DNA of 64,000 bases from contig OZ024741.1 of assembly GCA_964016885.1 (NCBI GenBank), positions 157,418,001 through 157,482,000 of the forward strand. Reading direction: 5' to 3'. Under the pieces are notes generated by a model. That model made no database searches and was not told the origin of the DNA. It was given only the letters and a program-made list of their open reading frames with translations. The stretch comes from Eledone cirrhosa. Lineage: Eukaryota. Below are positions 8,890 to 54,372 of this stretch, one piece after another (position 1 is the first letter of the stretch; each line of letters begins with the position of its first letter). The translations under genes and the position numbers were made by a program.

Positions 8890-9720
8890 ATGGACATGTC
8901 ACAAATGACAGAGGCCGAGATACCAACCACACAAGCGGCGTTAACATTGAAAGTCCCCGTCTTTTTGTCCAACGACCCGACTCTGTGGTTCACTCACATA
9001 GAAGCGCAATTCGCCGCGAACAGAATTAAGAGCGATTCCGCAAAGCTCACCTACATCATTGGATCTGTCCCACCAGAAGTTTTGGCTGAGGTGAGGGACC
9101 TCGTCATGGCACCGCCGGGCACGGTGTCATATGAATCATTCCGCAAGGAATTGATCAAGCAACTCGTGTCTGGAATTGGGAGACAGAAAACCGTCCCAAC
9201 TATTGCGAAAGATGAGACAGCTGATGGAGGACCAGCCACTTTCAGAAGATGTGCTGAAACGGCTGTTTATACAGCGCTTCGCCTTATCGATGCAGGGCAT
9301 TCTGGCGTCGACTAACGAGTCAGCAACCCCGGAGGAACTGGCGAGTGTCGCAGATAAGATCGCTGAGGTGTCAAACCCTTTTGCCTCAGTAGCACAGGTA
9401 GATAGTCTGACGAACCCTTACGTACCGTCCTCGGACTCCACCTCCGAGATTTCAGAGCTGCGGGCTATGATCAGAGAGCAGGCTGGTCAAATTAAAGCCC
9501 TCTCAAACCAATTAGAGAGCCTGACCTTGCAAACACACCGGCGGCGCATCAACAGTCGGTTCAGGCCCTTTCACCGTCGAAGATCCAGAAGTCCCAGTCA
9601 AATCGTGTGTCTGGCAACCTCTGCTGGTATCACGAAGAATTTGGCATACAGGCATCTAAGTGTAGGGCCCCGTGCTCTTTCCAGAATACCACCCAGGGAA
9701 ACGGGCAGACCAGGGCCTAG
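8890..9720 (+). pseudogene. gag: Gypsy gag, frameshifted
   Basis: LKVPVFLSNDPTLWFTHIEAQF; GDRKPSQLLRKMRQL; CWYHEEFGIQASKCRAPC (C-x2-H-x9-C-x3-C) at 9622-9675; GGGAAAC slippery-type heptamer at 9696-9702. Confidence 0.88.
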
Positions 9721-9759
9721 CGACGACATTCACCCCTGGTACTGAAAAGAAAAGTCATC

Positions 9760-12602
9760 CGTTACCTCGTGGATACAGGAGCCCAGGTTAGTGTTATTCC
9801 TGTTTCACTAATCTCGGGCAAAAGACACCCAACACCGTCCTTTCTGCAGGCAGTGAACCTATCGTCAAATCACTGACCCTCAATTTAGGCCTGAGGCAGC
9901 GTTTTCAATGGGTGTTCGTCGTGGCAGACCTGCCGACCTCTATCCTAGGAGCCGATTTTTTCCACCACTTCAACCTTCTGGCGGACATGAAGAACCGGAG
10001 GCTTATTGACACCACCACAAACCTCACTGTGAGAGGTATATTTATCACGCAATCCACAGTGAGCCCTGTAATTTGCCAGTCAGAGCCTTCGCGGTACAAC
10101 GGCATTCTCCAGAAATACCCAGACATCACTCGCCCGGTATTTAAGGATGGTCCTATTAAGCATAGTGTCACACACCACATCGAGACAAGAGGACCTCCCA
10201 CAGCTTCCCGACCAAGGAGACTGCCTCCAGACCAATTGAGAATCGCCAATCAGGAGTTCCAACACATGCTGGACCTCAAAATCATTCGCCCTTCCTCCAG
10301 CAACTGGTCTGCACCCCTACACCTTGTTCCTAAATAAACGAGAATGATTGGCGACCATGTGGGGATTATCGTGCACTTAACAATTCTACAGTGCCCGATA
10401 ATTACCCTGTACCTCACCTGCACGATTTTTCTGCCTCTCTGCAAGGCGCACGCATCTTTTCCAAGATAGATTTGGTGCGTGCATATAACCAGATACCTAT
10501 GGAGCCTGCAGATATTCCGAAGACAATACACAATCACAACACCGTTCGGTTTATTCAAATTCCTGCGAATGCCGTTCGGTCTGCGCAACACTGCACAAAC
10601 TTTTCAGCGGTTTAATGACACCGTGTTACGCGATCTACCCTTCATATACGCGTATATTGACGATGTGCTGGTAGCAAGTACTTCCGAGCAAGAGCACAAG
10701 AAGCACTTAGATCTCCTTTTCCAACGTTTGGCTGAGTACGGTATCATCATCCACCCCAGCAAGTGCCTTCTCGGCGTTCCTTCACTGTCCTTTCTCGGGC
10801 ACATCATCGATAAAGACGGCATCCGTCCACTTCCCAAGAAAGTGGAAGCTTTCCGCGGTTTTCCCGCACCTACATCACTTCGGAAACTGCGTGAATTCCT
10901 CAGTCTGGTGAATTTTTATAGGCGTTTTATCCCTCATTGTTCCGACGCAGCCAGACTCTTCACGGACCTTCTTCGTAGCCGGACTCTCAAAAACGAAGTG
11001 ATCACTCTAAACGGGGAAGAATTAACATCTTTTAACCGCCTAAAGGAAATGTTGGCAAACGCTTCCATGCTCGTTTTCCCCAGGTCTGGCGCTCCTCTTT
11101 CGCTGCTAGTGGACGCATCAGATACGGGGGTTGGAGGCGTTTTACAACAACATGTCGACGGCGTGTGGCAACCCCTATACTTCTTTTCTAAGCGGTTGCG
11201 ACCGGCAGAAACGAAATACAGTACCTTTGGCCAGGAACTCTTGGCAACCTATCTTTCGGTTAAGCATTTTCGGCACATGCTCGAAGGATCAGATTTCGTG
11301 ATCTATACGGACCATAAACCACTAGTTTATGCATTCCGTACCAAACCTGATCGACAAGAGTTTATCAAGCTCCGAGATTCGCAATCCTTCAAGTTTCAGC
11401 AAGTTCCCATTCCTTCTTCTCCGGGACAAATTTGGTGCGACTTTTCTACCGTTCATGAACGACCGTACGTACCACAGATGCAGCGTCGACAAGTTTTTTC
11501 TGCTTTACACTGCTTGTCTCACCCGGGAATCCGGGCTACACAGAAACTCATCTCTGCTCGTTTTGTGTGGACTAACATTAACAAGGATGTGCGCGACTGA
11601 TCCAGGAGCTGCATTGCCTGCCAGAAAGCCAAAGTCCACAGACACATCAAAACTCCACTCGGCACATTCGCACAACCTGATGCACATTTTCATCATGTGC
11701 ATATCGACATCGTCGGACCTCTACCACCATCACAGAACTACACACACTTGCTCACCTGCATAGATCGATTTTCTCGTTGGCCTGAGGCTTTTCCCATAAA
11801 TGATACCTCAGCGGAAACAGTCGCTAAAACTTTGGTTTTACACTGGGTATCGCGTTATGGCACCCCAGCGAAGATAACAACGGACAGAGGACGCCAATTT
11901 GACTCCCACCTCTTCAGGGAACTGACTCGCCTGTTAGGATGTAAACACATCCGCACGACAGCTTATCAGCCGCAAGCTAATGGTCTCGTGGAAAGATTCC
12001 ATCGCCAACTGAAAGCTGCAATAAAAGCATATCCAGACAAGACCCATTGGTTTGAATACCTACCACTCATCCTTCTGGGCATTCGATCCACCATTAAGGA
12101 GGAATTCGGACACACACCTGCAGAATTAGTGTACGGCACCACCCTGGTTCTACCTGGTCAGATGGTTGCTCTCATCTCTCCTCAGGATGTTCCGGACCCA
12201 GGATCATACGTACACCGTCTTCGACAATATATGTCTCACCTTGCTCCTGCAAGCACCCGTCAACAGAACACGGCAACACACGTACCTTCAGACATTAAAG
12301 ATTGGACACACGTTTTCGTTCGAAACGACACCATCTCAGCTCATCTTCGACCTCCATATTCTGGCCCTTATCGTGTTCTAAAAAAATATCCGAAATATTT
12401 TATTCTCGATCTAGATGGTAAACAGAATTCTGTCAGCGTGGACAGATTAAAAAAAGCCATCACGGATACTGTTACAGTCTCTACACCAGAAACTCCAACA
12501 GATTGCTGTCCCAGTGAGCCACCTGTTTCATCTCCAGTCACGAGAAGTGGACGACGCGTCCATTGGCCCGCCAAGTTGGCACAATGTGTGAATTACCGTT
12601 AA
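9760..12602 (+). pseudogene. pol: Gypsy pol (protease, RT, RNase H, integrase) with stops, frameshifts and deletions
   Basis: YLVDTGAQVS; RPSSSNWSAP; MPFGLRN; YIDDVLV; VDASD; YTDHKPL; HIDIVGPLP; TTDRGRQF; NGLVERFHR; PYSGPY. Confidence 0.92.
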
Positions 12603-31350: not shown

Positions 31351-31648
31351 ATCATCATCATCATCATCATTTTACCACCGCTTTTCCCTGCTTGCAAGGG
31401 TGGGACGGGAACTGATTCTGGCTTGATTTCTACACCTGGATGCCCTTCCTAACACCAACCTCATTTACAGTGAGTGCTGGGTGCTTTTTTGCCGTGGCAC
31501 CTCCACGACCACTTTGCAGTGGGATGATATAGACCCCAGTCCCTATCATCTCATTTCTACAGCTGACTAAACTGGAGCAATGTGAAATAAAGTGTCTTGC
31601 TCAAGGAAACAACACATCACCCGGTCTGAGAATTGAACTCACAACCTT
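31351..31648 (-). mobile_element. tRNA-derived SINE, 5'-truncated
   Basis: Homologous to 17269-17601. Confidence 0.85.
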
Positions 31649-31799
31649 ACTCTGACCAACTCCATCTCACTCAACAAATATTAGGATATACCTAAGTATA
31701 ATCCCAATTTAGTGTTTGGGATGCTAACTATACAGTATTCCGGGGAAAGTTGGTTGTATTATTTTATATGAGATATAATGAAATAAATCTCTCTTTCCT

Positions 31800-31922
31800 T
31801 CCATACAATCGTTTCGTTATAAGATTTCTACAATTGGGGATAAATAATGTTCAGGTTATGTAGAAACTTGTATATAATCCAAAGATATACACACAAGCGG
31901 GCCCTTATATCTCATCAGTGGA
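31800..31922 (-). ncRNA. Type I hammerhead motif with a 96-nt branched stem II
   Basis: Minus strand: TCCA-CTGATGA-[GATATAAG...two hairpins...CTTATAAC]-GAAA-CGATTG-TA-TGGA. Confidence 0.7.
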
Positions 31923-32996
31923 TGCCCATGCAATATCGATATAAAAAACTACATCGATACTAATAATTAGTGATGGTCTCCGTCAGTGCTAAAAGGACTA
32001 AATTTGAAAAGCCAGTAGTCCTTCAAAAAGAAAATTCACACTGTCCCCAAAAAGGAAAGGGGAGGTCATCGTAAAATATAAAATAATATACACGCTGGTC
32101 ATTGAAGCCTGTTAGGTGTTTTAATCACGTGTTTAAGAACTCAATTGGATATTAAAAAAATAAATATATGTATGTACCATCTATACACACAGAGATATTT
32201 AAAAAAAATATATAATAAATAAATATACACACTATCTATACACACATATAGGTATTTTCTCAGGCAATATGTACGTTTATTTGTATAAGTAGATAGAGGA
32301 TTAGAACGTAATCTCTATTACTACTCTGTGTATCAGGTGTACTCCTAGGTTAAACCAGTCCTCTCCAGCACAACTTCCTTATACACACATTCACACACAT
32401 TCATATATACACATACATACATGCATACTTATACTCATACATGCACATTCATACACACAGTTAAATTTATACACAAAATCATGCATACACTTATACACAG
32501 CCACACACATACACAATTATGTATATATATACATGTCTGAGTGTCTATGTTTTTACATGAATTTAGTAAGCGAGTCTTACTAGCTCTACTATTCTTACTA
32601 GCTTTACTATAAGAACCAACCAAGCAACGAATTGTGGAAGACAGCCCTGACTCACTGGAATTAGATTTCTTCTGAGAGAAGGCATTCTCCTGCAGCACTC
32701 TTAGAACTTCTCGGATTTCCTGTTTTAACCATTCCACATAACACTAACTCATTTAATACAACAAATGAATTTTTAAAAATATAAAATAAAAATGAAAGAA
32801 ATTTGGCTTCAAATTCTGATTTTTTTTAAATTAAGAATTCTTAGTATTTAAAAATGATTGCATGATTGGGTGTGGTCTAGTGGTTAGGATGTTAGACTCG
32901 CAATCTACAAAAAGACACTGCCTATCATTTTCAAATATTTTTGTAAACATACAAGAATTTGGAGAGATTTTATCATGTAACTAACTTTCTCATTAA

Positions 32997-53101: not shown

Positions 53102-53905
53102 AGGATGGAAACAGCACAGAAGGATCTTTTTTCTTCTTTAAACTGACAAAGTGATTATTGAAAAAAGGAGAAAAACATTTTTTTTTAATAAAATATATAA
53201 AAAATATTACCGGTTTCAATGTAATTCATCTTATCAAATATTAAAAAGTTAAGAAATAAAAATTAAAAATGTGTATGTATAAAGTATTTTTTTCAAAAGT
53301 GACCCATTCATCCTCTCAATGTTAAAGATAAACAGACCTTCTTCAACTCTTAATTATTAATTCTTAATTTTTTATATTTCATAATGTGGAGGCACATGGC
53401 TTAGTGGTTAGAGCATTGGCCTTGCAATCGAAAGGTTGTGAGTTCAATTCTCAGACTGGGTGATGTGTTGTTTCCTTGAGTAAGACACTTTATTTCACAT
53501 TGCTCCAGTTTACTCAGCTGTAGAAATGAGAAAGTGGTCGTAGAGGTGCCACGGCAAAAAAAAGCACCCAGCCCACACTGTAAAGTGGACATGTAGGTGC
53601 CATGAAAAAAAAAGCACCCAGCACTCACTGTAAATGAGGTTGGTGTTAAGAAGGGCATCCAGCTTTAGAAATCAAGCCAGAATCAGTTCCCGTCCCACCC
53701 TTGCAAGCAGGGAAAAGCGGACGTAAAATGATGATGATGATGATGATGATGAATTACATTGAAACCTATAATATATTTTATAATCCCCCTTTTTTTTTTT
53801 TTTAAATGTTTTTCTCCTTTTTGCAATAATCACTTTGTCGAATTAAAGAAAAAAAAAGATTCTTTAAATATACTTCCGTGCTGTTTCCATCCTTACTTTT
53901 TTTCT
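53095..53905. mobile_element. Old inverted pLTR-like pair with decayed hammerheads, interrupted by a SINE
   Basis: 53095-53230 is inverse to 53748-53905; minus 53203-53242 reads AATAT-TTGATAA-[GATGAATTACATT]-GAAA-CCGG-TA-ATATT. Confidence 0.6.
53388..53750 (+). mobile_element. tRNA-derived SINE, full length
   Basis: A and B boxes, core, RTE-type tail, (GAT)n. Confidence 0.88.
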
Positions 53906-54311: not shown

Positions 54312-54372
54312 TATTTTATCTGATGAGAACGTACCAAAGTTTTGGTACCCTTGAAATATATATAATAGAATA
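54312..54372 (+). ncRNA. Type I minimal hammerhead motif (family A)
   Basis: TATTTTAT-CTGATGA-[G AACGTACCAAAGTTTTGGTACCCT T]-GAAA-TATATA-TA-ATAGAATA. Confidence 0.75.

What the first reader, a model, noticed from the sequence alone, without database searches (positions are those of the whole stretch)
31800..31922. Hammerhead with a 96-nt Y-shaped (three-way junction) stem II
Seen on the minus strand: TCCA-CTGATGA, basal helix GATATAAG/CTTATAAC (one mismatch), then two hairpins (CTTGTGTGTA...TATATACAAG and TTTCTACA...TGTAGAAA), then GAAA-CGATTG-TA-TGGA. Canonical stem II is a short simple hairpin. Inference: a branched insertion in an otherwise minimal ribozyme could be a protein-binding or regulatory module, and standard length-limited searches would miss it.
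Basis: partly seen in the sequence, partly recalled or inferred. Interest (0 to 1): 0.72.

Follow-up and report, generated by a model that had tools for sequence, protein, structure and literature searches.

The report
Branched, knotted hammerhead in jumping repeat
This is a slightly decayed copy of a hammerhead (self-cutting RNA) motif that sits in thousands of copies of a protein-free jumping repeat, where the usual short second arm is replaced by a Y-shaped domain that likely also knots back onto the first arm; cutting is predicted, not tested.

Summary
Window 31922-31800 (-) is a type I hammerhead with a 96-nt branched stem II. It lies in a cut-down copy (31648-32267) of a non-coding repeat with a unit of about 640-770 nt. 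The repeat has Penelope-type insertion marks ((TA)n sites, fixed 3' end, partial tandems), so it is a non-LTR retrozyme. 3,170 copies match an exact core pattern (control 0); Rfam misses them. The Y is supported by compensatory changes between subfamilies. Added here: the unpaired junction strand is complementary to the strand 5' of stem I. The same pairing recurs with different sequences in other long-stem-II families of this genome (1 of 40,320 permutations as good), which points to a stem I-II pseudoknot. These families run from an internal loop to three-way and probably four-way junctions. No cleavage, RNA or autonomous partner is shown. The scan noted this long-armed family before on other DNA of this genome. 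Verdict: a new variant of a known kind.

The parts
31648..32267 (-). 5'-truncated copy of the non-coding repeat unit (full unit about 760-770 nt in this subfamily); its last ~35 nt are missing
   Evidence: BLAST of L001 against 29 paralogs; unit lengths; loose ends on both sides of 31648 in DNA runs X1, X2
31924..31928 (-). 5' strand of the predicted pseudoknot (TGGGC), one base upstream of stem I
   Evidence: complementary to 31902-31898
31919..31922 (-). stem I, 5' strand (TCCA)
   Evidence: T-A to C-G in 30 of 74 rows
31912..31918 (-). catalytic core C3-A9 (CTGATGA)
   Evidence: core 4% diverged between subfamilies against 13% in the 3' flank
31903..31911 (-). stem II basal helix, 5' strand (9 bp with 31824-31816); 31910 is a private mismatch
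31898..31902 (-). unpaired junction strand GCCCG, 3' strand of the predicted pseudoknot
   Evidence: unpaired in the consensus fold
31867..31897 (-). hairpin A of the three-way junction; sequence variable, pairing kept
   Evidence: 27% diverged; 5 of 7 double changes keep the pair
31826..31865 (-). hairpin B: 7-bp outer helix and a 3-bp inner helix (inner helix broken at 31851 in this copy)
   Evidence: outer helix 2% diverged, one compensatory change; inner GGA/TCC reads GGT/ACC in subfamily D
31816..31824 (-). stem II basal helix, 3' strand
31805..31815 (-). G12-A15.1 (GAAA), short stem III and U16.1; palindromic in the family, broken at 31807 here
31803..31804 (-). predicted cleavage site, after A17 (31804)
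   Evidence: hammerhead consensus; relatives have UA, UU or UC
31800..31803 (-). stem I, 3' strand (TGGA)
31540..31647 (-). 3' part of a very abundant tRNA-derived SINE fused to the repeat's cut 3' end (not part of the ribozyme; lower bound approximate)
   Evidence: same letters as the tRNA-like hit at 53395-53458; junction and depth jump at 31648

Best explanation
This is a type I hammerhead motif with a three-way-junction stem II, carried by an abundant protein-free repeat that is likely copied by Penelope-type retrotransposon enzymes; intact copies are predicted to cut in pairs, and a predicted pseudoknot would hold stems I and II together. Steps: (1, shown in DNA) the unit is non-coding, ends at a fixed point in (TA)n, is 5'-truncated and partly tandem. 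(2, inferred) Transcripts of tandem copies carry two hammerheads whose palindromic stem III strands pair with each other, cut once per unit and release unit-length RNA, possibly circularised. (3, inferred from cross-family complementarity) The unpaired strand just after the basal helix of stem II pairs with the strand just 5' of the 4-bp stem I, in place of the usual loop 1-loop 2 contact. Hairpins A and B are accessory helices on that scaffold: A is needed as a shape, B is also conserved in sequence. (4, inferred) A Penelope-type RT/GIY-YIG protein primes at (TA)n and starts copying about 180 nt past the cut site. The window copy is a lone, mutated monomer and is probably weak or inactive.
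For: Host: of 102 copies chosen by the hammerhead, 82 are followed by (TA)n, 4 by the next unit, 4 by other sequence and 12 have lost the 3' end; where present (90 copies) the end lies 292-300 nt from the core start in at least 86; 25 have a 5' partial tandem (units 638-955 nt). Arrays of three at 679 nt (L074); inverted copies (L021, L019, L057). Longest ATG-started frame 41-114 aa and not shared among 5 units. Fold: 94.8% of cells pair, 8 pairs with double changes; slid controls pair 32-46%. Between 9 subfamily rows, 14 of 21 distinct changes in stem II helices keep the pair (null mean 8.5, p 0.004), and 9 of 12 double changes do. Stem III strands self-pair at -10.0 kcal/mol in L002, -9.6 and -10.7 in families D and F, -5.8 in the window copy. 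Pseudoknot: the native upstream/linker pairing in 8 families scores best of 40,320 permutations by energy (3 of 40,320 by Watson-Crick run); pairings differ in sequence (TGGGC/GCCCG, AAAGA/TCTTT, TGAGAAG/CTTCTCA, GAGAAT/ATTCTC, ATGGAAA/TTTCCGT, GAGTTT/AAACTC). Stem I-II pseudoknots are known and raise activity (PMC3088659, passages).
Against: No cleavage or RNA data. Vienna gives the hammerhead fold low weight in many single copies (stem I probability 0.0-0.8 in 14 copies; the pseudoknot strands can instead close a competing nested helix over the core). Within the window's family the three central pseudoknot pairs never change and edge pairs break in 2 single-copy rows, so there is no compensatory change there. 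2 of the 8 families give no good pseudoknot (F 3 bp, K 2 bp), and families were picked after I had seen the pairing by eye in several. The count of pairs with double changes was not above shuffles (339 of 500). Hairpin A has 6 pair-breaking events among 15. The basal pair 10.1-11.1 is U-U in several subfamilies. No autonomous partner was found: coding Penelope-type ends that I saw carry 16-18-nt stems or no detected motif. A 9-bp basal helix beside a 4-bp stem I is not a modelled geometry.
Confidence: 0.68

Rival explanations
1. The hammerhead is real and dimer-type, but the branch is tolerated bulk: hairpins A and B only fold the extra sequence out of the way and do no specific job.
For: Stem II length varies widely among families of this genome (13-96 nt). 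Hairpin A is the most diverged part (27%). Coding Penelope-type elements here do with short stems. Copies with internal deletions of the branch exist.
Against: Hairpin B outer helix is 2% diverged against 13% in the flank, and length stays 95-97 nt across subfamilies. The same order of parts recurs in family F with other sequence.
Confidence: 0.3
2. The GGGC/GCCC pairing is an off-switch, not a pseudoknot: it forms first during transcription, encloses the core and blocks monomer cleavage until a partner RNA or the Penelope protein refolds it.
For: This nested helix is the best fold in several copies (L001, L034, L038, L047, L052). A Poseidon hammerhead cut only with its protein present (PMC11167929, passages).
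Against: Its position is fixed just outside stem I and just after the basal helix in six or more families, as expected if all three helices coexist; Vienna cannot score the pseudoknot.
Confidence: 0.15
3. The motif no longer cuts anywhere; it is kept as a structured handle (hairpin B) that the Penelope-type protein binds.
For: Hammerhead mutants did not affect insertion in vitro and no reads ended at the cut site for a Poseidon element (PMC11167929); weak 10.1-11.1 pairs in many subfamilies.
Against: Core letters, the U-H site, stem I and the stem III palindrome are all kept through subfamily changes; 50 of 73 copies of subfamilies A-C (chosen by a core pattern) are fully intact.
Confidence: 0.1

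Closest known systems
Minimal type I hammerheads of metazoan Penelope-like elements (Cervera and de la Pena 2014, PMC4209133; parts 1-2 of 4 read, supplements not seen)
   Same: Short helix I (4-5 bp), long helix II (7-8 bp), small palindromic helix III, predicted dimer cleavage, many lone truncated copies
   Different: Helix II opens into a junction with two hairpins (96 nt in all); a stem I-II pseudoknot is predicted; no extra base between A9 and G10.1 in the window's subfamily; host has no ORF
Metazoan non-LTR retrozymes (Cervera and de la Pena 2020, PMC7229834, passages; Li, Clavereau and Pollet 2026, 10.64898/2026.07.22.740005, parts 1-2 of 5)
   Same: Non-coding units with one type I hammerhead each, monomers to short arrays, unit length inside the reported 51-972 bp, proposed Penelope origin
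   Different: Described hammerheads are compact; here stem II is branched; circular RNA and expression not shown
Hammerheads of Hydra-clade and PLE-X elements (Craig et al. 2021, PMC8557442; passages, section 11, supplement parts 1-2 with File S2)
   Same: (TA)n targets, partial tandems, short stem III, frequent mismatch at the base of stem II; PLE-X1_sMoe has a 53-nt stem II flagged as deviating
   Different: All Hydra rows in File S2 have loop 2 of 10 nt or less; no junction or pseudoknot is listed
Pseudoknotted hammerheads (Perreault et al. 2011, PMC3088659, passages)
   Same: Base pairing between stem I and stem II regions replaces the loop-loop contact (about 40% of their representatives)
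   Different: Here the pairing strand lies in an internal loop or multi-way junction beyond a 5-9-bp basal helix, in a dimer-type animal motif. The solved PK hammerhead (PMC11300833, part 1 of 5) is another architecture: its helix II itself is the pseudoknot

Membership tests
Type I hammerhead ribozyme | Core CUGANGA, GAAA, A15.1-U16.1, H17 | tested here: met
   conserved in paralogs
Type I hammerhead ribozyme | Three helices around the core, stem I open | tested here: met
   the window copy has one private mismatch in stem II
Type I hammerhead ribozyme | Stem I-stem II tertiary contact | tested here: inconclusive
   pseudoknot supported across families, no compensatory change inside the family
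Type I hammerhead ribozyme | Site-specific self-cleavage | not testable with these tools
   needs an assay; no RNA holder listed
Penelope-type minimal hammerhead | Helix I 4-5 bp, helix II 7-8 bp | tested here: met
   4 bp and 8-9 bp
Penelope-type minimal hammerhead | Short palindromic helix III | tested here: met
   met in the family; broken at 31807 in the window copy
Penelope-type minimal hammerhead | Short terminal loop 2 | tested here: not met
   78-80 nt with two hairpins
Penelope-type minimal hammerhead | G10.1-C11.1 pair with an extra base after A9 | tested here: inconclusive
   G-C without extra base in subfamilies A-C; A-U or U-U in others
Non-LTR retrozyme | Non-coding unit with one type I hammerhead | tested here: met
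Non-LTR retrozyme | Tandem units | tested here: met
   25 of 102 partial tandems, arrays of three; the window copy itself is a monomer
Non-LTR retrozyme | Unit-length circular RNA | not testable with these tools
   only DNA-type contig runs were offered
Non-autonomous Penelope-like element | Fixed 3' end, 5' truncation, partial tandem and inverted copies, microsatellite target | tested here: met
Non-autonomous Penelope-like element | Shared terminal sequence with a coding partner | tested here: inconclusive
   none found among 60 loci of two coding families or the other GIY-YIG hits in the fetched loci; Hydra-type and Naiad ends were not searched genome-wide

The most novel reading that the evidence does not exclude
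A natural class of pseudoknotted, dimer-type hammerheads in which stem II is a modular scaffold: basal helix, a pseudoknot strand that grips stem I, then one to three accessory hairpins. The knot makes these Penelope-type motifs fast at cellular Mg2+, and the sequence-conserved hairpin B is a handle for the retrotransposon protein. Length-limited searches would have missed thousands of such ribozymes per genome.
Probability: 0.3. Interest if true: 0.7.

Novelty: new variant of a known kind. Interest (0 to 1): 0.48.

Why it matters
Hammerheads are among the best-catalogued RNAs, yet thousands of copies of this form escape Rfam. Penelope-type motifs were reported to cut poorly in vitro and to lack clear tertiary contacts; a pseudoknot strand upstream of stem I, easily left out of test constructs, offers a testable reason. 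The family series (internal loop, three-way, probable four-way junction) shows how domains can be added to a ribozyme arm in nature. The window copy itself is ordinary repeat debris.

Tried and rejected
Rfam: no hammerhead at gathering level in the window nor at E<=5 in 5 loci with intact copies. A short-stem ancestor with the same stem I/III: 0 matches for 6-40 nt; 5 matches for 40-70 nt, 3 of them deletion copies of the family. Genome-wide covariance-model search gave no answer twice; model R2 was run on the window, L221 and 98 of the 99 evenly spaced stretches instead. RNA: no RNA holder listed; this is no evidence either way. Contigs of X1 and X2 only show the junction at 31648. Autonomous partner: upstream homology ends within one unit; 2 of 114 long-arm hits have a Penelope-type ORF fragment upstream beyond a (TA)n run and 1 (L052) has a fragment 215 nt upstream that other family E copies do not share, so all were read as separate insertions. 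Pfam did not name 7 Penelope-like fragments; their clade labels are recalled from motifs. A 115-aa open frame in one unit (L029) is not conserved. The 150-nt 'stem II' hits in L034 and L232 lie in LINE coding sequence and were rejected as chance. Family E consensus folding was poor; its four-way junction rests on single-copy folds. Lunse et al. 2017 on Penelope-associated hammerhead dimers was not held and may bear on novelty, as may the unseen supplementary figures of PMC4209133.

Full report
Observation. On the minus strand the window holds stem I (TCCA 31922-31919 / TGGA 31803-31800), the core CTGATGA (31918-31912), a 96-nt stem II (31911-31816), GAAA, a six-base stem III insert and a UA site. 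The isolated stem II folds into a basal helix with two hairpins. The whole 166-nt stretch is not more stable than shuffles and its best fold is not the hammerhead (z 0.33). Rfam finds no hammerhead here, nor in five loci with intact copies at E<=5.

Host. The motif is part of a high-copy repeat in G000 (3.0 Gb; 2,302 first-look candidates, 40 scored). The window copy spans 31648-32267. Exact patterns give 142 matches for the window's near subfamilies and 3,170 for the wider family, with 0 in both reversed controls. Model R2 found 4 strong hits in 98 evenly spaced 10-kb stretches, which by my rough scaling means on the order of 10,000 copies. Homology upstream stops within one unit, and no open frame is shared. 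Of 102 copies chosen by the hammerhead, 82 are followed by (TA)n, 4 by the next unit, 4 by other sequence, and 12 have lost the 3' end; the end lies 292-300 nt from the core start; 25 carry a 5' partial tandem, units 638-955 nt, most 676-772. Arrays of three at 679 nt and inverted copies occur. These are the marks described for Penelope-like elements (PMC8557442, passages) and for non-LTR retrozymes, reported as non-autonomous Penelope derivatives of 51-972 bp (10.64898/2026.07.22.740005, parts 1-2 of 5). The animal is likely a cephalopod; that rests on recalled SINE motifs and was not tested.

The window copy is decayed. It differs from its 30 closest relatives at five places in 136 nt: 31910 breaks the second pair of stem II, 31851 breaks the inner helix of hairpin B, 31807 breaks the stem III palindrome (self-pairing -5.8 against -10.0 kcal/mol), and two are in loops. 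Its last ~35 nt are replaced by part of a tRNA-derived SINE at 31648. No second copy lies in the window.

Is the Y real? RNAalifold on 73 copies returns the basal helix, both hairpins and an inner helix in hairpin B. On 74 distinct rows including subfamily D, 94.8% of cells pair and 8 pairs show double changes; slid controls pair 32-46%. The number of pairs with double changes is not above shuffles (339 of 500), while cell-level measures are (0 of 500), and those are inflated by kinship. Counting each change once across 9 subfamily rows (three of them single copies), 14 of 21 changes in stem II helices keep the pair (null mean 8.5, p 0.004); 9 of 12 double changes keep it. Hairpin A is 27% diverged with 9 of 15 changes keeping the pair; the outer helix of hairpin B is 2% diverged with one compensatory change; the 3' flank is 13% diverged. 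Stem I (T-A to C-G) and stem III (the palindrome changes but stays a palindrome) also covary.

A likely pseudoknot. The five unpaired bases after the basal helix (31902-31898) are complementary to the five bases that end one base before stem I (31928-31924). Inside the family the three central pairs never change, so there is no compensatory evidence, and edge pairs break in two single-copy rows. Other families supply the test. A generic scan of flanks and of 0.99 Mb of evenly spaced stretches found 43 short (<30 nt), 18 medium (30-69 nt), 1 long and 1 spurious 150-nt stem II, with 0 on reversed sequence. Most medium ones have a 5-7-bp basal helix, an internal loop and one hairpin. In 8 families the 11 bases before stem I were scored against the 8 bases at the end of the basal helix: native pairs give Watson-Crick runs of 4, 3, 5, 7, 6, 6, 6 and 2 (mean 4.9) against 2.8 for 56 swapped pairs, and the native assignment is the best of 40,320 by energy. 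The paired sequences differ between families. Limits: I chose families after seeing the pairing in some; some are related; F and K are weak or negative. Stem I-II pseudoknots are known in about 40% of one large collection and raise activity (PMC3088659, passages).

A series of forms. Family F (83 nt; 2,161 candidates, 30 copies about 98% alike) has the same order of parts, basal helix, linker, two hairpins, with other sequence. Family E (about 95 nt; 200 candidates) keeps the GGGC/GCCC pair and in its best-folding copies shows three hairpins, a four-way junction; many copies are too decayed to fold so. A, D, E and F share a short TTGAGTG stretch near the 3' end. The window's Y thus looks like the medium form with a second hairpin in place of the 3' strand of the internal loop. 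That order of events is inferred, not shown.

Mechanism. Shown: the anatomy, covariation and insertion pattern. Inferred: tandem transcripts cut as double hammerheads through the palindromic stem III, as described for Penelope-type motifs (PMC4209133, parts 1-2 of 4), giving unit-length and perhaps circular RNA; the pseudoknot aligns stems I and II; a Penelope-type protein copies the RNA into (TA)n from an internal start, as shown in vitro for a Poseidon element (PMC11167929, passages). Against: that paper also found cutting dispensable for insertion in vitro and protein-dependent; single copies here often prefer a fold in which the pseudoknot strands enclose the core; no coding partner was found (two coding families, 30 loci each: one has 15-18-nt stems, the other gave no hit of my scan at its end); no RNA holder was listed.

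Novelty. Seven paper searches turned up no description of a natural hammerhead with a multi-way junction in stem II. The nearest printed case I saw is a 53-nt stem II in a spike-moss PLE-X element, flagged as deviating (PMC8557442 File S2). A 2026 paper-8 bp a long helix II and notes variants with additional helices elsewhere (PMC13725137, passages). Lunse et al. 2017 was not held. Earlier notes of this scan describe the same long-armed family on other DNA of this genome (e1-10349183, e1-10305919) and a long-armed motif in another genome (e1-8829994); they are not independent support. The few lines shown of them do not mention the pseudoknot.

Verdict. Real; a known ribozyme in a known kind of host; the branched and probably knotted stem II is a new variant. 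Interest 0.48.

Noticed in passing
window 54320-54365 (+) and 43203-43153 (-): Two more type I hammerheads of another family: 8-bp AT-rich stem I, 26- and 31-nt stem II, palindromic TATATA stem III; the first ends in (TA)n.
   Followed up: partly
L136-L165 (family F): A young family (about 98% identity, over 2,000 candidates) with an 83-nt three-way stem II and GUC site, unit about 840 nt; a good construct for cleavage tests.
   Followed up: partly
L106-L135 (family E): An older family whose stem II appears to hold three hairpins (four-way junction) and an extra A before GAAA.
   Followed up: partly
L015, L068, L045, L188, L225, L231, L244, L256, L266, L278, L280, L281, L288, L321, L322: Common 46-53-nt stem II hammerheads with an internal loop whose 5' strand pairs with the flank of stem I; some in 522-528-nt or 967-nt tandem units.
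   Followed up: yes
L112 (-) about 1031 from the strand start: A 93-nt unbranched-looking stem II with no pseudoknot by my rule; family not fetched.
   Followed up: no
L047, L090, L275: Arrays of 310-nt units, each with a compact hammerhead; in L047 on both strands.
   Followed up: no
L034:2583-4048 (-): Units of different subfamilies (about 78% alike) joined head to tail at 680-nt spacing, and a similar mixed array in L074; suggests insertion next to, or template switching between, relatives.
   Followed up: no
unit start, e.g. L029 (-) about 415 nt upstream of the core: A donor-like AG/GTATGA is kept in most subfamily A-D units; an intron as in Penelope pseudo-LTRs is possible but untested.
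   Followed up: no
L061, L062: The stretch just 5' of the core is inverted in two copies, which destroys stem I and the pseudoknot strand.
   Followed up: no
window 9155-12602 (+): Broken gag-pol-like frames of a Ty3/Gypsy-type LTR retrotransposon (label from recalled motifs); the rest of the window is mostly LINE fragments, SINEs and microsatellites.
   Followed up: no
L073:2050-2168 (+): A full-length 5S rRNA match (96 bits) about 190 nt past the end of a subfamily D copy.
   Followed up: no
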